From: a virus
IMG/VR virus record: IMGVR_UViG_3300046328_000056
Location: 2,297-66,296 of that record
Direction: 5' to 3' (one strand)
DNA: 64,000 nt
Positions 1 to 21,307 of this stretch are shown one piece after another; position 1 is the first letter of the stretch; every line of letters begins with the position of its first letter. The notes under the pieces were generated by a model that was given only the letters and a program-made list of their open reading frames with translations, was not told where the DNA came from and searched no databases. A program made the translations under genes and the position numbers.

Positions 1-789
1 TTGCTTCTCAACGTCGTCCAACTCGTAGGATGGCTCGCCCAGCTCTACGTCCATGTAGAACCCAGCCTCCATCAGCTTGGTCATCTCGTTCTCGGTCTTA
101 CGCATGACATGCGTGACCCGCTCCGCAGACTCCAGATTGGACGCGCCATAGGGAACGACGATGTCCTCGGCTGGAATAAATACAGCAGCTTGGCGTCCTT
201 TGCTTGGGTCGTAGTAAACCTTCTTGAACGCTGAGCCCGTGATGGGCAGGTTCCACAACATCTTCTCGTGCTCTGGCCGGTACTCGACCATCACTTCAGT
301 CAGTTGATAGTTCATGTCCTCGCGCACGCGAGCGGCGGCTTCTTCACGCAGCACGTCGATGGCCCCAACGATCTGGGTCTTGACTGGCCCCATTGCTGGG
401 AACGTCTCCATCATCGCCTCTGACTGGAAGCGCACAACTGACTCGGTGAGCATCGGGTGGAACACGCCACACGCACCCTGCCAAGGCTCAGTCCGATCTT
501 CGTACTTCAAGCCCAGCAGCTTCAGCCCGTCTACATACGTCTGAATCCAGTCGCGTCGGTCTTGGGTGTCCTTACCAAAATCTTCAACTAGGTCCATACC
601 CAGTGACTGCAAGTCACCGTCGTCCATGAACTCGGCCAAGTTAGCATCGAACTCCTCGGCTGTGCCCTTGGTCTCTTCCTCCACCACCTCGCCATCGTCC
701 TCGGGCTCCAGCTCCAACTCGATTTCGATCTCGGGTTCTTGGGTCAAGTCGGAGATGCCAACGGGGGCTGCGTATAAACCTTTTTCCAT
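1..789 (-). CDS. Portal protein, N-terminal part (runs off window start)
   Basis: Not in the ORF track. Hand translation from ATG 789 (SD AAGGA): MEKGLYAAPVG...RRDWIQTYVDGLKLLGLKYEDRTEPWQGACGVFHPMLTESVVRFQSEAMMETFPAMGPVKT...GSAFKKVYYD. Lies directly after terL and resembles P22-like portals. Confidence 0.85.
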   Translation of the reverse strand, partial: MEKGLYAAPVGISDLTQEPEIEIELELEPEDDGEVVEEETKGTAEEFDANLAEFMDDGDLQSLGMDLVEDFGKDTQDRRDWIQTYVDGLKLLGLKYEDRTEPWQGACGVFHPMLTESVVRFQSEAMMETFPAMGPVKTQIVGAIDVLREEAAARVREDMNYQLTEVMVEYRPEHEKMLWNLPITGSAFKKVYYDPSKGRQAAVFIPAEDIVVPYGASNLESAERVTHVMRKTENEMTKLMEAGFYMDVELGEPSYELDDVEKQ

Positions 790-798
790 GATGTGTCC

Positions 799-2319
799 TT
801 ACACTGTGTAGTACCGCTCTTTGCGGTGGCTTTTGAACCATTGAATCTCTTCGGGCTCGTCGGTGGGCAGACGTAAAAAGCCCCCAGCCCGGAATCTCAT
901 GAGGGCCAGAGTTGTTGCGTCAACCAAGTCATCGTGCTCGCCTGACGGGAACGCAGCAATCTCGTCCACTAACTCTTCAGCCCATCGTGTACGGGGAACC
1001 CATACTTTTCCAGACGCAATTATGTCCGAGACTGAGTTCAAGCGGGCGATTTTGTCCTGACCTTTTGACGGGGTGTAGTCCTGCACGGGTATGCCCATCG
1101 CACGTAGTTCATAGATCAGCGGCGCACCGGTCGCCTTCTTCTCGATCAACAGTCCGTCGGGCTCGTACATGTTGTACTCCTTGAGCACGTCGCGCTTCAG
1201 CTCCACCCACTCGACCCGCTTCTTGTACGTGTTGAGCAAGATGATGTTCTTGGTCTGGTCTTTGTGATGCGTGAAGATGCCCCACGTCGTCCCAGCGGAG
1301 TAGTCGGCCCGTTGGTTTTTCTCAAAGGCCGTGTCCCATGTCTGGAGGATGTATTCGCACTGGGGCGGGTCGTCCTCTTCCCACCACTGCCACCAATCGC
1401 GCTTGACAATCGCTGACTCGTTGCCCACTGGGTTCTGCTGGTACTGGGCTTGCCACTTACTATTAGGCAGTTCCTCCCGCAGGGCTTCCAATTCGTCGAA
1501 CGACCAGAACTCTGGCCACAGGGGGTTGCCACTAGGCAGGATGGCCGGGAACTCAATGACCTCCCACTCCTCGCCACTGCGTGCAGCCGCTGCTTTAATC
1601 ACTTGGCCGGTCAGATCGCGCTGAGCCCAGCGCGTCATCACGATCACAATCGCCCCACCCGGCTGCAAACGCTGCCGGGGTCCGGATGTGTACCATTCAT
1701 ACACCTTGTCATACACATCGGGGTTGGTAGCCGCCATCGCAGCCTCTTGTTCCGAGTGCGGGTCATCAATAATCAGCACGTCCGCACCTTTACCGGTCAC
1801 CGCACCGCCCACACCAATAGCGAAATAGTCGCCGCCCTTGGATGTGTTCCACCGGCCAGCCGCTTTTGAGTCACTTTGCAGGTTCAGGTCGGGGAAAATG
1901 TCGTGATAGACCTCGGAATCGACCAAATTTCGCACTTTTCGACCGAAACCCACCGCCAATTCAGCAGTGTGGGACGCCTGAATCACTTTTTTGTGTGGAA
2001 ATTGGCCCAAAAACCAAGCCGGGAGCAGGTAGGACGCGAATTCTGACTTCGTATGGCGGGGTGGCATGTTGATGATGAGCCGTTTGCACTCACCTCTGGC
2101 CACTCGCTCGAACGCTTCAGCCATTCTCTTGTGGTGACGGCCTGAAATGAAGGTCGGCCAGACCTTTTCCACGAACTTGATGAACCTCGTCTGGCAAAGC
2201 TCACGGTCTTTGAGCTTCTCCAACTTGGTTAGCTGTGCTTCAAGAGTACGAAGATCGGAGTCTGTCAGCTTCCCCGAGTTAATCAGGGTCTCGATGTCCT
2301 TGAGTGAGACGTCACTCAT
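799..2319 (-). CDS. terL: Terminase large subunit
   Basis: Walker A-like NMPPRHTKS, Walker B LIIDDPH, motif III VMTRW, RNase H-like nuclease QTWDTA and HDDLVDA. Confidence 0.95.
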   Translation of the reverse strand: MSDVSLKDIETLINSGKLTDSDLRTLEAQLTKLEKLKDRELCQTRFIKFVEKVWPTFISGRHHKRMAEAFERVARGECKRLIINMPPRHTKSEFASYLLPAWFLGQFPHKKVIQASHTAELAVGFGRKVRNLVDSEVYHDIFPDLNLQSDSKAAGRWNTSKGGDYFAIGVGGAVTGKGADVLIIDDPHSEQEAAMAATNPDVYDKVYEWYTSGPRQRLQPGGAIVIVMTRWAQRDLTGQVIKAAAARSGEEWEVIEFPAILPSGNPLWPEFWSFDELEALREELPNSKWQAQYQQNPVGNESAIVKRDWWQWWEEDDPPQCEYILQTWDTAFEKNQRADYSAGTTWGIFTHHKDQTKNIILLNTYKKRVEWVELKRDVLKEYNMYEPDGLLIEKKATGAPLIYELRAMGIPVQDYTPSKGQDKIARLNSVSDIIASGKVWVPRTRWAEELVDEIAAFPSGEHDDLVDATTLALMRFRAGGFLRLPTDEPEEIQWFKSHRKERYYTV

Positions 2320-2914
2320 CGGTTTCTACCTCGGAATCCGAGGTACGTTTTGTTTGTTCCACTGGCTCGACTGGCCCCAACTGCATTTCCAGATCATCAA
2401 TGGGTTTGACATCAATGACTTCCGCATTGAGCAGCCGCTTGACCCGCTCTTTAATAGAGTCTTCCAGCGCACTGGAGGTTGTGTGGTGAACCGTGATCTC
2501 GCTGCGTTCGGTGAAAAGGCCGATGTCTGAGTGCTTGCCCAGCAGTTCGAGCGCCTTCAATTCAATCTTCGGGTCGCCGTTGTCGGCCAGCTCAATGAGC
2601 TTGTTTGTTATGAAATTGCGGGCTTGGAGCGCATCCGAGAACGCTTGGAAGTCAAAGCGCTTGACCAAATGGTGAGCCGCCGCAGCTTCTGCTGACTTAG
2701 AAATAGTCTTGGGTGTCTGGGGTTTGCCTGCGCCTGTGATGAGATCAGCAGCTTTAGTCAGGTCGCCTTCGCCGAAATCTATGCTTGGGCCGAGTGCATC
2801 AATGAGGTCTACGGTGTTGACAGCGATGGCTATGCTATCCGCATGAGTCTTGGGTTGCTCATCGGTCAGGTCAAAGGGAACAGGGTGTTCCGTCGTAGGC
2901 TCAATTTGAATCAT
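2312..2914 (-). CDS. Probable terminase small subunit
   Basis: Directly upstream of and overlapping terL. C-terminal KALELLGKHSDIGLFTER resembles TerS tails. Start set at ATG 2914; the longer track ORF runs into the control region. Confidence 0.6.
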   Translation of the reverse strand: MIQIEPTTEHPVPFDLTDEQPKTHADSIAIAVNTVDLIDALGPSIDFGEGDLTKAADLITGAGKPQTPKTISKSAEAAAAHHLVKRFDFQAFSDALQARNFITNKLIELADNGDPKIELKALELLGKHSDIGLFTERSEITVHHTTSSALEDSIKERVKRLLNAEVIDVKPIDDLEMQLGPVEPVEQTKRTSDSEVETDE

Positions 2915-2943
2915 AGGCACCAAAGTAAATTGGGAGTGGGCGA

Positions 2944-2987
2944 AATGTAGCAGAAAAAATTTATACATGACAACTCCCTCATGTATA
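2944..2987 (-). promoter_or_regulatory. Putative leftward (late) sigma70 promoter overlapped by an inverted repeat
   Basis: Minus strand TTGTCA (2973-2968), 18 nt, TGC-TACATT (2949-2944). IR TATACATGA-N8-TCATGTATA at 2962-2987. Confidence 0.45.
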
Positions 2988-3248
2988 GAAAATTGCAAAA
3001 TTTTTATACGACACCTTTTGGGTCCCTTGACGGGGGGTGTTTTGGAAAATGGAAATACACCGGGGGTGTAGAAAAAAGTAATAGGGGTAGGGGGGTAAAG
3101 TTGAAAAATGCGGATCGGGTGTGCGACACAGTGTGTATGGGGTCCCCACCTCCCCTTGCTGAGAATCGGGGTGCATGGGGTCTGTCTCGGCGCTCGGTCT
3201 AACATTGTTAGGCCATTCCCCCATATTTAATTTTTGTTTCCCCAAAAC

Positions 3249-9595: not shown

Positions 9596-10204
9596 ATGGG
9601 AAGATTCGTGGACTTAACCAACCAGCGTTTTGGCAGGTGGCTTGTGCAATATAGAGACCCGAAAGGGAAGTACGGTAAGCCTGCGTGGGTTTGCCTGTGC
9701 GACTGCGGTAGCACGAGTGTTGTGGCGGGTAGCGCCCTGCGCATGGGTGAGTCCACGAGTTGTGGATGCTTTCAGAGGGAGCTGGCGGCGAAGAACCTTG
9801 GGAACACTGCACGTAAACACGGGCGGCACAACACACCAGAGTACTTTCGTTGGCTCAGTATGAAGTTGCGTTGTCAGCATCCAAGCCATCATGCGTTTCA
9901 AAACTACGGTGGTAGAGGCATCTCTGTATGTGACCGCTGGAATAAAAGTTTTGAGGCGTTCGTCGAGGACGTGGGGGAGAGACCCACACCCGAACACACC
10001 CTTGATCGGATTGACAACGATGGAAACTACGAACCAACAAATGTTAGATGGGCTACACGGCAAGAACAGGCCAACAACAGGAGAAACAACGTGAGGATTA
10101 CACACAATGGGCAGACTAAAACATTGGCGGCATGGGCACGAGATATCGGTATCACCCCCGAAGGGGTGGCGTATCGAATCCAACACAACAAGCCGTTGCT
10201 GTGA
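9596..10204 (+). CDS. Free-standing HNH homing endonuclease
   Basis: DLTNQRFGRWLV, CLCDCG, SCGC, YGGRGISVCDRW, TLDRIDNDGNYEPTNVRWATRQEQANNRR. Confidence 0.9.
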   Translation: MGRFVDLTNQRFGRWLVQYRDPKGKYGKPAWVCLCDCGSTSVVAGSALRMGESTSCGCFQRELAAKNLGNTARKHGRHNTPEYFRWLSMKLRCQHPSHHAFQNYGGRGISVCDRWNKSFEAFVEDVGERPTPEHTLDRIDNDGNYEPTNVRWATRQEQANNRRNNVRITHNGQTKTLAAWARDIGITPEGVAYRIQHNKPLL

Positions 10205-12149: not shown

Positions 12150-12329
12150 ATGAAACTGGGGAAGCTGGACTATTCCGTAAGCAGAGAGGAAGGCTTTGTG
12201 AAGATCAACTGGGAAGTTATGCCAACAGGCGTAGTCATGTTGGACGTACTACAAGACTGGATAGTAGAACTGCAAGACATCTACGACGAGCAATTTGGAA
12301 AAGTTTTTAACCAAGGGGAATCAAAATGA
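12150..12329 (+). CDS. Hypothetical protein
   Basis: Hand translation MKLGKLDYSVSREEGFVKINW...LDVLQDWIVELQDIY...; SD AAGGAG. Confidence 0.55.
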   Translation: MKLGKLDYSVSREEGFVKINWEVMPTGVVMLDVLQDWIVELQDIYDEQFGKVFNQGESK

Positions 12330-13180
12330 GTATCAGTGCATCAGCAGTGTTAGTGGAATTGAACATCAGTGTGTGGCCTGCATCGAAGATTGATCGGGAG
12401 GTTACCGACAAGGTGAACACGGACGCATCAGCGGTACGTGGTGCATCGCAGACCAAGAAGAATCTGTTTGCGGGTACGTCACTACGCAAAGACATCGAGA
12501 AGTTTGCGGCGCGGGTTCGCCTGTATCACAACCAGCACACGTTGCCGTGGGCTGACAAGGGTGAGCGCATGTTGCCGACCAAGTTGTTCATGGAGTACAA
12601 GCAGACCATGAATGGGTTCGAGCAGACGTTCAACATGATGTGTCAGAACTTCTTCTTGGAGTACCCACGCCTTGTTGCCGAAGCCCCTACCAACTTGGGC
12701 ACGATGTACAAGCCCGAGGACTATCCCGACCTTGAGGATGTGAAGTTGAAGTTCGGGTTCCGTCGAGCGGTCAACCCCATGCCTGAGTCTGGCGACTTTC
12801 GCTTAGACATTCCAGCGAATGACTTGGAGGAGATGCGCAGCGAGTTCGAGGTGAAGTCCAACGAGCGACTGGCCGATGCCATGCGTGAGCCTTGGAAGCG
12901 ACTGCACAAAGTGTTGACCGACATGTCGGAGAAGCTGACCGACGTGGATGGCGACGAGGCCAAGAAGCGTTACCACGACTCTCTTATCAGCAACCCTATT
13001 GAGCTGTGTGAGCTGTTGACCAAGCTGAATGTAACCAACGACCCCAAGTTGGAGGAAGCACGTAGGCAGTTAGAGCTAACAATGTTAGGGGCTGACATCG
13101 AGAACATCAAAGAGTACGCAGACTCTCGTAGCGAATTGAAGTCCAAGGTGGATGCAATTCTTGACAAATTTACATGGTAA
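12326..13180 (+). CDS. Conserved phage protein (DUF3150-like)
   Basis: 284-aa helical protein with HTLPW...RMLP and LNVTNDPKL; typical neighbour of AAA/vWA modules. Confidence 0.65.
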   Translation: MSISASAVLVELNISVWPASKIDREVTDKVNTDASAVRGASQTKKNLFAGTSLRKDIEKFAARVRLYHNQHTLPWADKGERMLPTKLFMEYKQTMNGFEQTFNMMCQNFFLEYPRLVAEAPTNLGTMYKPEDYPDLEDVKLKFGFRRAVNPMPESGDFRLDIPANDLEEMRSEFEVKSNERLADAMREPWKRLHKVLTDMSEKLTDVDGDEAKKRYHDSLISNPIELCELLTKLNVTNDPKLEEARRQLELTMLGADIENIKEYADSRSELKSKVDAILDKFTW

Positions 13181-18183: not shown

Positions 18184-18647
18184 GCGAGTTCTGTGCGGGG
18201 GTAAAAATCCTACTAGAGCGCATGAAGTCCAACCCCGAGGACTTTGAATTGCTTGAATACGATGCGTCTTTAATGCACGGCATCAAAGGCAGGTTCTACG
18301 AATTTGCTCAAGCTGTTGAGGGAATAATCTTGGGTAAAACCGACAAAGACAGGCCGTGGAAAGACTGGCAGTACTTTACCGAGGAGGAACGCCAAGCTTT
18401 GATTGCTGGGTTCAAGGAAATGAAGCGAGCCAAGTTTGACAAGGGAATCATGGAGCGAGTATTTGATGAGAAATACATTGACCGTCAACATGAGGAACTA
18501 CAAAAAGCTAGACAACCTATGTATTACCACCCCTCACATCAACCACCGCCAGTTCACCCGTTACAGCAGGGTACTTTCGTAACTACAACCGACAACACAA
18601 GCGGGACGTTTTTAGGTTCTCTTGGTCTTGGGGGCATTTTCAAATGA
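18180..18647 (+). CDS. Hypothetical protein (paralog of previous gene)
   Basis: MSEFCAGVKILLERMKSNPEDF...; ATGA overlap. Confidence 0.7.
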   Translation: MSEFCAGVKILLERMKSNPEDFELLEYDASLMHGIKGRFYEFAQAVEGIILGKTDKDRPWKDWQYFTEEERQALIAGFKEMKRAKFDKGIMERVFDEKYIDRQHEELQKARQPMYYHPSHQPPPVHPLQQGTFVTTTDNTSGTFLGSLGLGGIFK

Positions 18648-21307
18648 ACATCATCACGATTGACTTTGAGACAGCCTATGGCGGTGACCTTGGGTTTGCC
18701 AAGCAGACCACGGAGGAGTACATCCGTGACCCACGCTTTGAGGTTATTGGTGTTGCGGTACAGGTAAACGATGGCGAGCCGGTGTGGTTCAGCGGTACAC
18801 ATCAAAAGATGTGGGACTTCCTGAACAAGTACGACTGGAAAAACTCCCTTGCGCTTGCGCACAACGCGCCGTTCGACGGAGCCATCCTGAATTGGAAGTT
18901 TGGCATGACCCCCAAGGGTTGGCTGGACACGCTGAGTATGGGTCGGGCGCTTCATGGTACGAACGTAGGCGGGAGCCTCGCGGTTCTGGCCCAACACTAC
19001 GGCATTGGGGAGAAGGGCACTGAGGTGCTCAACGCCATCAATAAGTTCCGCAAGGACTTCAACAAGGAAGACTTGGCACGGTACGGCGAGTACTGTAAGA
19101 ACGATGTGAAGCTGACGTGGGATTTGTTCGGACACATGAGCCAAGGGTTCCCGAAGATTGAGCTACGGCTGATTGACCTGACTGTGCGCATGTTCACCGA
19201 GCCAGTGTTGCAGTTGGATACAGAATTGCTGGAAGTGCATTTGGAGGCGGAGAAAGAACGTAAAGCCCAGTTGTTGAAAACTTTTGACAAAGACACCTTG
19301 ATGAGCAACCCACAGTTTGCTGACCTGCTGGTATCGCTTGGTGTACAGCCCCCAATGAAAAAGAGCCCAACCACTGGCAAACAGACCTTTGCGTTCTCTA
19401 AGACGGATGAGGAGTTCAAGGCCCTGCTCGAACATGAAAATACAGCAGTGCAAGCAGTGGTCGCGGCGCGGCTGGGAACGAAGTCCACGATTGAAGAGAC
19501 CCGCACCGAGCGGTTCATTGGGATTGCCTCCCGAGGGCCAATGCCAGTTCCCCTACGCTATTACGCCGCCCACACTGGACGCTGGGGTGGTGACGACAAG
19601 ATCAACTTACAGAACTTGCAACGCACATCGCCTTTGAAGATGGCAATCCTTGCGCCCTATGGTGACGTGATGATTGACTCAGACTCATCGCAGATTGAAG
19701 CGCGGACGCTGGCATGGCTGGCTGGACAGGACGACTTGGTGGAAGCATTTGATAGGGGTGAGGATGTATACAAGATCATGGCATCGGCTATCTATGGCAA
19801 GGCTGTTGAAGCGATTACCAAAGACGAGAGGTTTGTCGGTAAGACGACAATCTTAGGTTGTATTTCCGAGGGAACGCTGGTATTATCCGACTCAGGGTGG
19901 AAGCCTATCGAGCAGGTTTCCTTGGACGACAAGTTGTGGGACGGGGAGGAATGGGTATGCCATCAAGGATTACAGAACAGCGGCATCAAGGAAACATTGA
20001 ATCTTTGCGGGATGTGGTTAACACCAGACCACAAAGTGTGGTCAGGGACACAGTGGTTGGAAGCGCAATCTCTGGTGCAAGACGCAAGTACCCTCTCCCA
20101 AGTATTGGACACCGCAGTGGAAAACTTACCGTTACAGGCTACCTTTGCGGACAGAGGGGAGGCGTTGCTTCGCTTGTCGTCAGGTGTGAGTGCCGACCCG
20201 ATGAGTACAGCGTGGACGTGCATAATTTCAAGTATTTCAAAAGCACGCGCTGTCCGCTTTGTGCCAAAGCTGCTTCAAACCAAAAACGGTACTGGGTGTA
20301 TTCGCACGCAATGGCCGACGACGGGCACAGAACCAGACTACTCAATCGACTGGCTGCTGCCATCACAAGGTGTCACACCGCAACCAACAAAGCATATTCT
20401 CACTATGGGGGGCGTGGCATATCGGTGTGGCCCAAATGGAGAGAAGATCGAGCTTCGTTTCTTCGATATGTGCAAACGCTTGAAGGCTGGGATGTCCCGA
20501 GTTTTGAAATGGACAGGATTGACGTTAACGGCAACTACGAGCCAGACAACATCCGATTCGTTTCTCGAAGTGACAACCTTAAAAACAAACGTCGAGTCGC
20601 CAACCTTGAGGCGCAAATTACAGACTTACGATCTCGCTTACGCAGGGCCGAGGAATCGTTACATGGTGTTAACAGCACAAGGGCCGATGATTGTTCATAA
20701 CTGCGGCTACGGCATGGGCGCGGCAAAGTTTATGGCGCAACTTAAGAATTTTGGTGTTGAAGTGTCGCTTGAAGAAGCGAAGCGAATCATTGATACGTAT
20801 CGAAGTACTTACCCGAAAATTACTGCACTATGGAAAGCTGCGGCGAACGTCCTCCCCGCAATTATCAGCGAGCAAACGACGGCGTTTGGGCGGGACGACA
20901 TCCTCAAGGTAGATGGCAAGGACGGCATCCTGCTACCCAACGGACTGCGCTTGAAGTACCCCAACCTGCGCCAAAAGGTGGACGAGGAAAGCGGCAAGGT
21001 CGAGCTTGTGTACGACACCAAGAAAGGCAAAGCCATCATCCCCAACCGAATCTATGGCGGCAAGGTGATTGAGAACGTATGCCAAGCCCTTGCACGTATC
21101 GTGATAGGCGAGCAGATGCTGATGATCGCCAAGAAGTACCGTGTGGTGATGACTGTGCATGATAGTGTGGGGGTGATAGCACCCGAGGCCGAGGCTGAAA
21201 CAGCTAAGGAGTACGTTGAATTGTGTATGCGTATCCGCCCGTCGTGGGCACCCGAGCTACCGCTGAACTGCGAAGCAGGGTATGGCAAATCTTATGGAGA
21301 CTGTTAA
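18644..21307 (+). CDS. polA: Family A DNA polymerase with 3'-5' exonuclease, interrupted by an intein
   Basis: Exo I IDFET, Exo II AHNAPFD, Exo III YCKND; HTGRW, NLQNL; motif A DSSQIEAR; motif B RFVGKTTILG/CGYG split by the intein; motif C TVHDS. Spliced product 606 aa. Confidence 0.95.
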   Translation: MNIITIDFETAYGGDLGFAKQTTEEYIRDPRFEVIGVAVQVNDGEPVWFSGTHQKMWDFLNKYDWKNSLALAHNAPFDGAILNWKFGMTPKGWLDTLSMGRALHGTNVGGSLAVLAQHYGIGEKGTEVLNAINKFRKDFNKEDLARYGEYCKNDVKLTWDLFGHMSQGFPKIELRLIDLTVRMFTEPVLQLDTELLEVHLEAEKERKAQLLKTFDKDTLMSNPQFADLLVSLGVQPPMKKSPTTGKQTFAFSKTDEEFKALLEHENTAVQAVVAARLGTKSTIEETRTERFIGIASRGPMPVPLRYYAAHTGRWGGDDKINLQNLQRTSPLKMAILAPYGDVMIDSDSSQIEARTLAWLAGQDDLVEAFDRGEDVYKIMASAIYGKAVEAITKDERFVGKTTILGCISEGTLVLSDSGWKPIEQVSLDDKLWDGEEWVCHQGLQNSGIKETLNLCGMWLTPDHKVWSGTQWLEAQSLVQDASTLSQVLDTAVENLPLQATFADRGEALLRLSSGVSADPMSTAWTCIISSISKARAVRFVPKLLQTKNGTGCIRTQWPTTGTEPDYSIDWLLPSQGVTPQPTKHILTMGGVAYRCGPNGEKIELRFFDMCKRLKAGMSRVLKWTGLTLTATTSQTTSDSFLEVTTLKTNVESPTLRRKLQTYDLAYAGPRNRYMVLTAQGPMIVHNCGYGMGAAKFMAQLKNFGVEVSLEEAKRIIDTYRSTYPKITALWKAAANVLPAIISEQTTAFGRDDILKVDGKDGILLPNGLRLKYPNLRQKVDEESGKVELVYDTKKGKAIIPNRIYGGKVIENVCQALARIVIGEQMLMIAKKYRVVMTVHDSVGVIAPEAEAETAKEYVELCMRIRPSWAPELPLNCEAGYGKSYGDC
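19859..20701 (+). mobile_element. Intein (281 aa, PolA residues 406-686)
   Basis: Block A CISEGTLVLSDSG, block B LTPDHKVW (TxxH), block F TYDLAYAGPRNRYMV, block G IVHN followed by +1 Cys. Removal restores KTTILGCGYGMG. Confidence 0.93.
19957..20700 (+). CDS. HNH homing endonuclease in the -1 frame inside the intein
   Basis: GKLTV, VRCEC, RCPLC, YSHYGGRGISVWPKW, EMDRIDVNGNYEPDNIRFVSRSDNLKNKR: same family as 9596-10204. SD GGAGGA 6 nt before ATG 19957; alternative GTG at 20053. Confidence 0.85.
   Translation: MPSRITEQRHQGNIESLRDVVNTRPQSVVRDTVVGSAISGARRKYPLPSIGHRSGKLTVTGYLCGQRGGVASLVVRCECRPDEYSVDVHNFKYFKSTRCPLCAKAASNQKRYWVYSHAMADDGHRTRLLNRLAAAITRCHTATNKAYSHYGGRGISVWPKWREDRASFLRYVQTLEGWDVPSFEMDRIDVNGNYEPDNIRFVSRSDNLKNKRRVANLEAQITDLRSRLRRAEESLHGVNSTRADDCS

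What the first reader, a model, noticed from the sequence alone, without database searches (positions are those of the whole stretch)
19859..20701. Intein whose homing endonuclease is encoded in an overlapping alternative reading frame
Seen: PolA motif B (KTTILG|CGYG) is split by a 281-aa intein with all canonical splicing blocks (C1, TxxH, block F, His-Asn, +1 Cys). Its roughly 190-aa central region shows no endonuclease motifs in frame. The -1 frame is stop-free from 19843 to 20700, across the whole intein, and encodes an HNH nuclease (YGGRGI.VW..W...MDRIDVNGNYEPDNIRF...N..N) of the same family as the free-standing HNH at 9596. The intein codons for DGEEW supply an SD (GGAGGA) 6 nt before ATG 19957, and the HNH stop TAA lies within the intein's terminal CAT-AAC (His-Asn). 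Established: intein homing endonucleases (mostly LAGLIDADG, some HNH) are normally fused in frame between the splicing halves. Inference: a dual-coded selfish element in which one frame keeps PolA functional by splicing while the other makes a separate mobility protein. Standard annotation would call it an endonuclease-less intein. I know of no established description of this arrangement but could not search the literature.
Basis: partly seen in the sequence, partly recalled or inferred. Interest (0 to 1): 0.94.

Follow-up and report, generated by a model that had tools for sequence, protein, structure and literature searches.

The report
Polymerase intein with overlapping endonuclease gene
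A self-splicing protein insert (intein) in this freshwater phage's DNA polymerase carries its presumed mobility gene, an HNH-like endonuclease, in a second overlapping reading frame; the layout is real and shared by hundreds of phages, but this kind of layout was first described in 2025-26.

Summary
PolA (18644-21307) is interrupted in motif B by a 281-aa class-1 intein (19859-20701). The -1 frame holds an intact 249-aa HNH-like ORF (19951-20700).

It is not an assembly error. All 85 related inteins examined have 0 stops in the polymerase frame. In 77 of 78 full-length ones the -1 frame stays open for 241 codons or more. An independent metagenome contig is identical, with no indels.

Selection switches frame. 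dN/dS in the intein frame is 0.14-0.19 in exteins and splicing domains and 1.35 in the centre. In the -1 frame the centre gives 0.11.

AlphaFold folds the -1 product well (pLDDT 82). In frame, residues 96-247 are disordered (pLDDT about 30) between confident Hint halves.

Of the 80 closest polymerases, 79 lack the intein, and deletion "mini" forms exist. Both fit a mobile element.

The layout is not unprecedented. Three Gogarten-lab papers from 2025-26 describe out-of-frame endonucleases in inteins. This scan also found this PolA family before, on other DNA.

Caveats: the conserved start is 19951, not 19957. The "HNH" label rests on PHROG names, and the expected catalytic His is an invariant Arg. 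Translation, cleavage and splicing are untested.

The parts
18644..21307 (+). Family A DNA polymerase gene (887-aa precursor). The exteins are 18644-19858 and 20702-21304, plus the stop codon.
   Evidence: ORF. Pfam DNA_pol_A E 4.2e-28 in 3 stretches, and DNA_pol_A_exo1 E 9.2e-5.
19859..20701 (+). Class-1 intein of 281 aa in the polymerase frame, inserted in motif B between ...KTTILG and CGYG...
   Evidence: Foldseek top rows are inteins or other Hint-type domains. 79 of the 80 closest polymerases are uninterrupted at exactly this point.
19859..20143 (+). N-terminal splicing (Hint) half, intein residues 1-95, including C1 and block B TPDH.
   Evidence: pLDDT 90-96 per 10-residue block for residues 1-90, falling over 91-100. 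Frame-0 dN/dS is 0.14-0.19.
20144..20599 (+). Intein 'linker', residues 96-247. In frame it is a stop-free but unstructured read-through of the nested gene.
   Evidence: pLDDT under 50, with block means about 30. Frame-0 dN/dS is 1.35, and frame-0 codon position 2 is the most variable.
20600..20701 (+). C-terminal splicing half, residues 248-281 (blocks F and G, His-Asn).
   Evidence: pLDDT 89-95. Frame-0 dN/dS is 0.18.
19951..20700 (+). Nested -1-frame ORF encoding a 249-aa HNH-like putative homing endonuclease. The alternative ATG is 19957. The TAA stop at 20698-20700 lies inside the intein's terminal CAT-AAC.
19945..19950 (+). Shine-Dalgarno-like GGAGGA. It abuts ATG 19951 and lies 6 nt before ATG 19957.
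   Evidence: Sequence. SD-like tetramers occur at -4 to -8 in a minority of the 64 relatives, e.g. AGGA at -4 in 28.
20119..20262 (+). Predicted zinc ribbon of the nested protein, ORF residues 57-104, with Cys 79, 81, 101 and 104.
   Evidence: C79, C101 and C104 are invariant and C81 is 90% or more conserved in 59 sequences. Strands at 59-66, 72-79 and 85-88. CapR-homology Pfam hits in 21 of 59 members.
20506..20592 (+). Beta-beta-alpha core of the nested protein (EMDRIDVNGNYEPDNIRFVSRSDNLKNKR), ORF residues 186-214.
   Evidence: Strands 186-189 and 201-204, then a helix from 206. D188, R189, N200, N209, N212 and R214 are invariant. The motif aligns to a canonical HNH_3 protein with DH replaced by DR, weakly, at E 0.11.
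9596..10204 (+). Free-standing paralogue of the nested gene in the same phage (202 aa).
   Evidence: phrog_374 at E 2e-68. The own-genome search finds exactly these two copies.

Best explanation
This is a composite selfish element written in two frames. In the polymerase frame, 843 nt encode a class-1 intein. Its two Hint halves (residues 1-95 and 248-281) are joined by a roughly 150-aa unstructured linker, and the intein should splice out to restore PolA motif B. In the -1 frame the same DNA encodes a separate 249-aa protein of a very large phage family of free-standing HNH-like homing endonucleases. That protein has an N-terminal helix, a Cys4 zinc ribbon, a beta-beta-alpha core and a C-terminal coiled-coil helix.

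The nested protein is most likely made by internal initiation at the conserved start at intein codon 31/32 (19951, or 19957 in this copy). It would then cut or nick intein-less polA alleles during co-infection, so that repair copies intein and nuclease gene together.

Shown here: both frames are conserved and open; purifying selection acts on the intein frame at the ends and on the -1 frame in the centre; the two structure predictions are opposite; the distribution is sporadic; and deletion derivatives exist. Inferred: translation start, nuclease activity, target site and splicing.
For: Conservation of both frames:
- The HNH motif lies in the -1 frame in 4 of 4 cultured-phage relatives at about 30% intein identity.
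- All 85 related inteins have 0 frame-0 stops. In 77 of 78 full-length ones the -1 frame is open for 241-293 codons, while the third frame's longest open run is usually 20-85 codons.

Selection:
- The most variable codon position is frame-0 position 3 in exteins and Hint halves, and position 2 (the -1 frame's wobble) over codons 76-255 (64 sequences).
- NG86 values pooled over 58 pairs give frame-0 dN/dS of 0.14-0.19 outside the centre and 1.35 in the centre. The -1 frame gives 0.11 in the centre and 1.2-2.0 outside its ORF.
- Resampling: the intein frame was stop-free in 0 of 20000 trials. Free-standing relatives carry 3-17 stops in the corresponding frame.

Structure:
- The -1 product has mean pLDDT 82.2.
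- The in-frame product has pLDDT about 30 over residues 96-247, between halves at 89-96. The listed Foldseek matches are inteins or other Hint-type domains.

Start of the nested ORF:
- A start codon sits at the same codon in 63 of 65 non-identical relatives (ATG 42, GTG 17, TTG 4).
- In most, -1-frame stops lie 1-21 codons upstream, and 60 of the 63 have none for the next 235 codons or more.
- There is no conserved slippery heptamer (at most 8 of 64 sequences).

Mobility:
- 79 of the 80 closest PolA N-exteins (70-93% identity) have no intein.
- Intein and extein similarity are incongruent. L007 has intein 73% against extein 57/48%. L010 has extein 89/74% against intein 54%.
- Five mini-inteins at the same site keep remnants of the -1 ORF.

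Independent assembly: a contig from another study spans 19605-20721 with 0 differences and 0 gaps.
Against: There is no evidence of translation. No RNA holder was listed, and no promoter-like site or unusual RNA structure lies near the start.

The SD-like GGAGGA abuts ATG 19951, which is poor spacing. The well-spaced ATG 19957 is not conserved. A start codon at this position is partly forced by the intein's [EK]-W codons, and 17 relatives have GTG there, so start-codon conservation is weaker evidence than it looks.

The nuclease assignment is soft. 0 of 59 members and 0 of 6 free-standing relatives hit any Pfam HNH model. NCBIfam gives nothing. No solved-structure relative was found by sequence or fold. 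The residue aligned to the HNH general-base His is an invariant Arg.

Selection was measured on the family, not on this copy. Some members are decayed: L027 has a premature stop, and there are deletion forms.
Confidence: 0.8

Rival explanations
1. Assembly artefact. Two compensating indel errors have put a normal in-frame HNH domain of the intein out of frame.
For: None found.
Against: The same two-frame layout occurs in 4 GenBank phages and 80 IMG/VR loci from many samples. A contig from an independent study is identical over 19605-20721 with no gaps. The polymerase frame is kept stop-free against expectation (0 of 20000).
Confidence: 0.01
2. Relic. The -1 ORF descends from an endonuclease gene that once invaded the intein but is no longer expressed or active in this phage. 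The intein persists as a de facto mini-intein with a long linker.
For: Decay stages exist in the family: L027 has a premature stop, and five deletion mini-inteins occur, one of them 89-90% identical to this intein. No expression evidence was found. The catalytic His position is Arg.
Against: This copy's ORF is intact from the conserved start to the stop. Family-wide dN/dS in the -1 frame is 0.11 in the centre. The Arg is shared by the free-standing relatives aligned here (6 of 6), which belong to a very large family (112,365 cluster representatives), so it is not a sign of decay here. The nearest polymerases lack the intein, which implies recent gain.
Confidence: 0.1
3. The -1 protein is functional but is not a DNA-cleaving homing endonuclease. 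It could be a sequence-specific DNA binder, a nickase needing a partner, or a regulator, because the general-base His is replaced by Arg.
For: R189 is invariant in 59 of 59 nested copies and in 6 of 6 aligned sequences including free-standing ones. There is no Pfam HNH hit. The only link to canonical HNH_3 is a weak hhalign match at E 0.11.
Against: PHROG families annotated as HNH endonuclease match at E 1e-30. The family behaves like homing-endonuclease genes. It is free-standing between the halves of a split PolA in phage phi G17, it is nested in sporadically distributed inteins, and the nearest ESM-Atlas clusters include one named 'Homing endonuclease family protein'. Asn 200, 209 and 212 are invariant, as in HNN-type enzymes (the comparison is recalled).
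Confidence: 0.12
4. Programmed -1 ribosomal frameshifting fuses the PolA N-extein and the N-terminal intein half to the HNH-like domain, instead of separate initiation.
For: The -1 ORF lies in the -1 frame of a translated gene, and in this copy it is open from 19843, upstream of the intein.
Against: There is no slippery X_XXY_YYZ heptamer in this copy between codons 31 and 90, and none is conserved (at most 8 of 64). In most relatives, -1-frame stops lie 1-21 codons before a conserved start codon. No RNA structure stands out.
Confidence: 0.03
5. Group I intron carrying an HNH gene, as the Sodalis phage SO-1 record annotates the homologous region.
For: RefSeq NC_013600 labels the overlapping CDS pair 'type I self-splicing intron'.
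Against: No Rfam family matches 19600-20950 at E up to 1. The insert is in frame and stop-free. Its ends are under purifying selection as protein. It folds as a Hint domain with C1, TxxH, HN and +1 Cys.
Confidence: 0.01

Closest known systems
Actinobacteriophage inteins with non-canonical homing endonucleases (Gosselin, Arsenault and Gogarten, bioRxiv 10.1101/2025.01.02.630785). This covers the same-strand 'frame 3' endonuclease VII-like genes and the antisense LAGLIDADG and VSR-like genes. I read the abstract, sections 8 and 15, and passages.
   Same: A bona fide intein in the host frame. The in-frame centre has no recognisable structure. The endonuclease lies in another frame of the same DNA. 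Free-standing relatives exist. The proposed origin is invasion of an intein by a free-standing endonuclease gene.
   Different: Here the nuclease is HNH-like, not EndoVII-like. The hosts are phages of Gram-negative and freshwater bacteria. [quoted passage not shown] Its figures and supplements were not visible to me, so I cannot say which endonuclease type its DNA-polymerase inteins carry.
Cyanobacterial dnaX intein with an out-of-frame (+2 ORF) LAGLIDADG endonuclease (Phillips, DeSimone and Gogarten, bioRxiv 10.64898/2026.09.14.751524). I read the abstract and passages.
   Same: A disordered in-frame centre, a confident fold in the other frame, frame-dependent dN/dS, an SD-like motif, coexisting mini-intein and intein-free alleles, and the proposal of secondary invasion of a mini-intein.
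   Different: The endonuclease family is LAGLIDADG. The host gene is cellular (dnaX) rather than a phage PolA.
[quoted passage not shown] I read the abstract, section 19 and passages.
   Same: A hidden HNH-type ORF in a shifted frame of a stop-free in-frame insertion. Its stop codon lies in the last four bases, TAAC, as here (CAT-AAC). It has flanking zinc fingers and a sporadic distribution.
   Different: ShiLan has no detectable splicing domain and is thought to stay in the protein. Here the insertion is a complete intein. Whether the two nucleases are homologous was not tested.
Fractured genes: split inteins with a free-standing endonuclease gene between the halves (Dassa et al. 2009, PMC2677866; search listing and abstract only).
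   Same: The intein and a free-standing-type endonuclease gene are separate coding units at one locus.
   Different: There the host gene and intein are broken into two ORFs. Here the polymerase frame is continuous (0 stops).
[quoted passage not shown] 1997).
   Same: The same logic of splicing plus homing, and the same position of the endonuclease between the splicing halves.
   Different: Here the endonuclease is not part of the intein polypeptide.

Membership tests
Class-1 intein (Hint superfamily) | N-terminal Cys or Ser nucleophile | tested here: met
   Cys at 19859. C1 is invariant in 64 of 64 aligned sequences.
Class-1 intein (Hint superfamily) | Block B TxxH | tested here: met
   TPDH is present. 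T55 and H58 are invariant.
Class-1 intein (Hint superfamily) | C-terminal His-Asn, and Cys, Ser or Thr at +1 | tested here: met
   IVHN followed by CGYG. N281 is invariant and H280 is 90% or more conserved. Position +1 is Cys or Ser in 84 of the 85 loci; the exception, L069, is a match cut at the contig end.
Class-1 intein (Hint superfamily) | Hint fold | tested here: met
   The AF2 halves have pLDDT 89-96. The listed Foldseek PDB rows are inteins or other Hint-type domains, with probability up to 1.00 and best E 4.1e-3, which is above the tool's 0.001 line because of the 152-aa disordered insert. Pfam is weak: Hint_2 in 8 of 64 members and none for this copy.
Class-1 intein (Hint superfamily) | In-frame insertion at a conserved host site that is uninterrupted in homologues | tested here: met
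   79 of the 80 closest polymerases read TTILG directly followed by [ACS]GYGMG (one has SGYAMG). Rhizobium phage RHph_TM3_14A is contiguous at this point.
Class-1 intein (Hint superfamily) | Protein splicing activity | not testable with these tools
   This needs expression of the 887-aa precursor.
HNH (beta-beta-alpha-metal) endonuclease | Match to a curated HNH profile | tested here: not met
   Pfam gives no HNH family for this ORF, for 0 of 59 nested homologues, or for 0 of 6 relatives. NCBIfam gives none. Only PHROG families named 'HNH endonuclease' match: phrog_374 at E 1e-30 and three more at E 1e-16 or better.
HNH (beta-beta-alpha-metal) endonuclease | Beta-beta-alpha core fold | tested here: inconclusive
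   The AF2 secondary structure has strands at 186-189 and 201-204 followed by a helix from 206, at pLDDT about 90. No PDB fold match was obtained, because the long C-terminal helix filled the list.
HNH (beta-beta-alpha-metal) endonuclease | General-base His at the end of strand 1 | tested here: not met
   The position is Arg189, invariant in 59 of 59 and in 6 of 6 aligned sequences including free-standing ones. hhalign to a canonical HNH_3 protein pairs its DH with DR (E 0.11, weak).
HNH (beta-beta-alpha-metal) endonuclease | Conserved Asn residues of the motif | tested here: met
   N200, N209 and N212 are invariant.
HNH (beta-beta-alpha-metal) endonuclease | DNA cleavage | not testable with these tools
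   This needs purified protein and intein-less polA target DNA.
[quoted passage not shown] | Splicing domain in the host frame, with an unstructured in-frame centre | tested here: met
[quoted passage not shown] | Intact endonuclease-like ORF in another frame over the centre, with free-standing relatives | tested here: met
[quoted passage not shown] | Frame-dependent purifying selection | tested here: met
[quoted passage not shown] | Sporadic distribution and intein-extein incongruence | tested here: met
Group I intron with an endonuclease ORF | Ribozyme core recognisable by covariance models | tested here: not met
   No Rfam match at E up to 1 in 19600-20950.
Fractured gene / split intein | Host gene and intein broken into two ORFs | tested here: not met
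   A single 887-aa ORF with 0 stops.

The most novel reading that the evidence does not exclude
This PolA-motif-B family may be a snapshot of how bifunctional inteins are born. A free-standing HNH-like homing-endonuclease gene has repeatedly overprinted a mini-intein: in the -1 frame here, and in the +1 frame of a homologous intein at the same PolA site in Streptococcus phage Javan104. The result is a stable two-gene symbiosis. About 150 intein residues would then be selected for nothing except the absence of stop codons. About 30-45 codons at the N-terminal border would be truly dual-coded, as Hint strands in one frame and a confident helix in the other. The nuclease would work with Arg where HNH enzymes have their general-base His, which would make it a new catalytic variant of the beta-beta-alpha-metal fold.
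Probability: 0.3. Interest if true: 0.75.

Novelty: new variant of a known kind. Interest (0 to 1): 0.55.

Why it matters
Standard annotation calls these elements endonuclease-less or "decaying" inteins and misses the nested gene. One RefSeq record even labels the pair a group I intron.

The family is large. IMG/VR holds 343 relatives. In GenBank phages, 149 records have a match covering at least 80% of the intein, mostly Salmonella and Escherichia siphophages. The published examples are actinobacteriophage and cyanobacterial, so this family would put the questions raised by the 2025-26 preprints into easily handled phage-host systems. Those questions are how a gene nested inside a translated gene gets expressed, and whether splicing and homing functions co-evolve as two genes.

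The family also gives a clean natural case of a long protein segment kept only stop-free. It supports the "splicing first, endonuclease invades later" model of intein origin. And it flags a very large HNH-like family (112,365 cluster representatives) whose expected catalytic His is Arg.

Tried and rejected
Pfam and NCBIfam on both frames gave no HNH or strong Hint hit for this copy.

A sequence search of the PDB with the 59-sequence profile found only a weak zinc-ribbon-like match to cytochrome oxidase 5B, at E 0.5.

Fold searches of the -1 model were uninformative. Foldseek against the PDB gave nothing at E 0.001 or better. VIA-align wide returned only coiled-coil matches to the C-terminal helix, at Z 5.5 or less.

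The ESM Atlas gave nearest clusters without a common Pfam family. One is named 'Homing endonuclease family protein' (0.92). I-HmuI_NUMOD-like, AP2 and NUMOD3 clusters scored only 0.83-0.84, so they are leads only.

hhalign against a single canonical HNH_3 protein gave E 0.11. That is suggestive at motif level but not significant.

The promoter and terminator scan found no + strand site. RNA folding around the start gave z -0.01. No conserved slippery site was found.

No RNA holder was listed among the sequencing runs, so expression could not be examined.

In run X5, one contig joins 19801 to 20705 (skipping 903 nt; side 27, likeness threshold 90). This may be an intein-less relative in the same sample, but it is too weak to count.

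X1, the possible source sample, gave only three short 90-95% pieces on the stretch and added nothing.

Literature searches: with passages read. None found a description of an out-of-frame HNH in a PolA intein, in Jerseyviruses or in Sodalis phage SO-1. Supplements and figures of the three Gogarten-lab papers were not visible and may list related cases.

My HNH regular expression was too narrow and missed this window's own motif. I did not use its counts.

Rows dropped before counts:
- L006 (partial) and five mini-inteins were left out of the 'full-length' set.
- Identical DNA was collapsed from 78 to 65 sequences.
- One further sequence without 90-nt flanks was dropped, leaving 64.
- L001-L004, L027, L073 and L081 were left out of alignments A3 and A4.
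- dN/dS used the 58 of 2016 pairs with 70-97% nucleotide identity.

Full report
**What is there.** The window is bases 2297-66296 of a complete 66,296-bp virus record with direct terminal repeats. Runs that hold the stretch are freshwater, lake and drinking-water metagenomes.

An 887-aa ORF at 18644-21307 is a family A DNA polymerase: Pfam DNA_pol_A at E 4.2e-28 in three stretches, plus the 3'-5' exonuclease domain. After ...ERFVGKTTILG the frame continues with a 281-aa insert (19859-20701). The insert begins with Cys, contains TPDH, ends ...IVHN, and is followed by CGYGMG. From my recollection of the family A motif B pattern (R-x3-K-x3-F/L-x3-Y-G), the insert sits inside motif B.

The frame one base upstream is open from 19843 to the TAA at 20698-20700, which lies within the intein's last two codons, CAT-AAC. 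That frame has ATGs at 19951 and 19957, just after a GGAGGA.

The -1 product hits PHROG families annotated as HNH endonuclease (phrog_374 at E 1e-30). It is 37% identical over 89 residues (E 3e-17) to a free-standing 202-aa ORF at 9596-10204. These are the only two copies of the family in the phage.

**Not chance and not an assembly error.** I kept the -1 protein and resampled synonymous codons using the window's own codon usage. The polymerase frame was stop-free in 0 of 20000 trials (mean 7.2 stops), and in 18 of 20000 for the centre alone. The reverse test gave 1 of 20000. The third frame has 14 stops. Free-standing relatives have 3-17 stops in the corresponding frame.

tblastn of the in-frame intein found 190 phage records, 149 of them covering at least 80% of it. 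Most are Salmonella Jerseyviruses annotated 'intein-containing DNA polymerase precursor'. I inspected four: Salmonella phage JD02, Pseudomonas phage MR14, EBPR siphovirus 2 and Vibrio phage 97.13. They share only about 30-36% intein identity with the window. In all four the nuclease motif is again in the -1 frame and the polymerase frame is open.

A scan of IMG/VR found 343 relatives, of which I examined the best 80. All 85 sequences have 0 stops in the polymerase frame. In 77 of 78 full-length ones the -1 frame is open for 241-293 codons; the exception, L027, has a premature stop. The third frame's longest open run is mostly 20-85 codons.

A contig from a different study covers 19605-20721 with no differences and no gaps.

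**Which frame is under selection.** I used a codon alignment of 64 non-identical sequences. The most variable codon position is the polymerase frame's third position in the exteins and in intein codons 1-75 and 256-281. Over codons 76-255 it is the second position, which is the wobble position of the -1 frame.

The table gives pooled Nei-Gojobori dN/dS over the 58 pairs at 70-97% nucleotide identity.

| Region | Polymerase frame | -1 frame |
|---|---|---|
| N-extein | 0.16 | 1.89 |
| Intein codons 1-30 | 0.14 | 1.96 |
| Codons 32-62 | 0.19 | 0.90 |
| Codons 63-89 | 0.62 | 0.35 |
| Codons 90-250 | 1.35 | 0.11 |
| Codons 256-281 | 0.18 | 1.18 |
| C-extein | 0.14 | 1.68 |

In codons 32-62 the synonymous rate in the polymerase frame is roughly halved (0.30 against 0.53). 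This fits a stretch constrained in both frames. Identity to the window is also higher in the -1 frame than in the intein frame for the same loci, for example 84/79/82/75% against 77/73/76/57%.

**Structure predictions.** With a 59-sequence alignment, the -1 product folds with mean pLDDT 82.2. The model has an N-terminal helix, a three-stranded zinc ribbon with invariant Cys residues, helices, a beta-beta-alpha unit, and a long C-terminal helix.

With a 64-sequence alignment, the in-frame intein gives 10-residue block means of pLDDT 90-96 for residues 1-90 and 89-95 for 251-281. Residues 96-247 are below 50, with block means of about 30. The listed Foldseek matches for that model are inteins or other Hint-type domains, with probability up to 1.00 and best E 4.1e-3.

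The intein 'linker' is therefore simply the out-of-frame reading of the nested gene. Fittingly, the intein-frame profile also finds the +1 frame of the free-standing paralogue, which is interrupted there by a TGA.

**Where the nested gene starts and stops.** In 63 of 65 non-identical relatives the -1 codon spanning the last base of intein codon 31 and the Trp codon 32 is a start codon: ATG in 42, GTG in 17 and TTG in 4. In most, -1-frame stops lie 1-21 codons upstream. In 60 of the 63 none occurs in the next 235 codons or more; the exceptions are L027, L073 and L081. In the window this codon is ATG 19951.

A start-type codon here is partly forced by the intein's [E/K]-W codons, so this is moderate evidence.

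The stop lies 1 to 61 nt before the intein end in different lineages. No slippery heptamer is conserved (at most 8 of 64). No promoter-like site or RNA structure stands out. Separate internal initiation is therefore the best-supported mechanism, but it remains unproven.

**Mobility.**
- Among the 80 IMG/VR polymerases closest to this one (70-93% identity over the 250 residues before the insertion point), 79 are uninterrupted. The residue after TTILG is Ala in 46, Cys in 29 and Ser in 4. Only one carries the intein.
- Intein and extein similarities disagree. L007 has intein 73% and nested protein 79%, against exteins at 57/48%. L010 has exteins at 89/74% against intein 54%.
- Five loci carry mini-inteins of 135-182 aa at the same site. 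Their -1 frames keep remnants of the nested ORF. One of them, L020, is 89-90% identical to this intein.

These are the stages expected of a homing cycle.

**How good is 'HNH'?** The label rests on PHROG and RefSeq names. No Pfam HNH model matches this ORF, any of the 59 nested homologues, or any of 6 relatives. There is no NCBIfam hit, no solved relative by sequence, and no informative fold match.

The core reads EMDRIDVNGNYEPDNIRFVSRSDNLKNKR. A weak hhalign match (E 0.11) to a canonical HNH_3 protein of phage JD02 pairs that protein's Asp-His with Asp-Arg here. Arg189 is invariant in all nested and free-standing members aligned.

The family is very large: 112,365 cluster representatives at E 0.001 or better. 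It also behaves like homing-endonuclease genes. In Escherichia phage phi G17, a free-standing member sits between two halves of a split polymerase gene. I therefore call it an HNH-like putative homing endonuclease and flag its catalytic chemistry as open.

**Comparison with what is known.**
- Gosselin, Arsenault and Gogarten (bioRxiv 10.1101/2025.01.02.630785; abstract, sections 8 and 15, passages) report actinobacteriophage inteins whose endonucleases are antisense or in 'frame 3' (endonuclease VII-like). They propose invasion of inteins by free-standing endonuclease genes.
- Phillips et al. (bioRxiv 10.64898/2026.09.14.751524; abstract, passages) show a +2-frame LAGLIDADG gene in the cyanobacterial dnaX intein, with frame-specific dN/dS.
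- Arsenault et al. (PMC11855218; abstract, section 19, passages) describe an out-of-frame HNH insertion without splicing domains, whose stop also lies in a terminal TAAC.

My five literature searches found no description of this PolA-motif-B, HNH-like family. The Sodalis phage SO-1 record does annotate the overlapping pair, but as a 'type I self-splicing intron'. Rfam finds no intron here.

This scan had already noted the same family on other genomes. My tests were run on this window and agree with those notes.

**Verdict.** This is a real, selected, two-frame selfish element. It is a new variant (an HNH-like nuclease in PolA, in phages of Gram-negative and freshwater hosts, with an ORF reaching into both splicing halves) of a kind first described in 2025-26. 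Expression, cleavage and splicing still need experiments.

Noticed in passing
L171 (Streptococcus phage Javan104) 1041-1967: A 309-aa intein at the same PolA motif-B site (GKIAELA before the Cys, CGYGG after) carries a homologous HNH-like ORF in the other alternative frame (+1 relative to the intein), not -1 as here. This suggests independent overprinting events or a frame change by indels.
   Followed up: partly
L172 (Escherichia phage phi G17) 1-3106: The DNA polymerase I gene is split into two CDSs (gp30, gp28) by a free-standing member of the same HNH-like family (gp29). The split is at a different site, upstream of motif A as judged by eye.
   Followed up: partly
L020, L057, L059, L063, L066 (intein coordinates): Mini-inteins of 135-182 aa at the same site retain fragments of the nested ORF in the -1 frame. 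They are deletion derivatives, and L020 is 89-90% identical to this window's intein.
   Followed up: yes
L089-L168, the residue after TTILG: Intein-less alleles are polymorphic at the +1 position: Ala in 46, Cys in 29 and Ser in 4 of 79. The 15 closest relatives listed (80-93% identity) have Ala, which could not serve as the splicing nucleophile. Whether this affects susceptibility to invasion is unknown.
   Followed up: no
window 9858-10088 (G000 12154-12384): The +1 frame of the free-standing paralogue matches the profile of the intein 'linker' (E 1.8e-4) but contains a TGA. This illustrates that the linker is an out-of-frame reading of this gene family.
   Followed up: partly
This is probably a misreading of the same intein/nested-gene layout.
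   Followed up: partly
Proteins P0002, P0003, P0004, P0019: Longer family members (395-604 aa) carry three to five tandem copies of the zinc-ribbon module ahead of one nuclease core.
   Followed up: no
Protein P0047: In this 451-aa protein an SNF2-like helicase N-terminal part (DEGH and LTGTPL motifs, by eye) runs in frame straight into an HNH-like domain of this family. It may be an endonuclease insertion in a helicase gene.
   Followed up: no
window 19801-20705, run X5: One contig at higher depth (34.7 against 5.3) joins 19801 to 20705, skipping 903 nt. It may be an intein-less relative in the same lake sample, but the support is weak (side 27, likeness 90).
   Followed up: no
L001 (Salmonella phage JD02) 5351-5590 and 4857-5354: The record annotates an 'intein-containing DNA helicase' fragment just downstream of the polymerase. 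A canonical Pfam HNH_3 protein (167 aa) lies between them.
   Followed up: no
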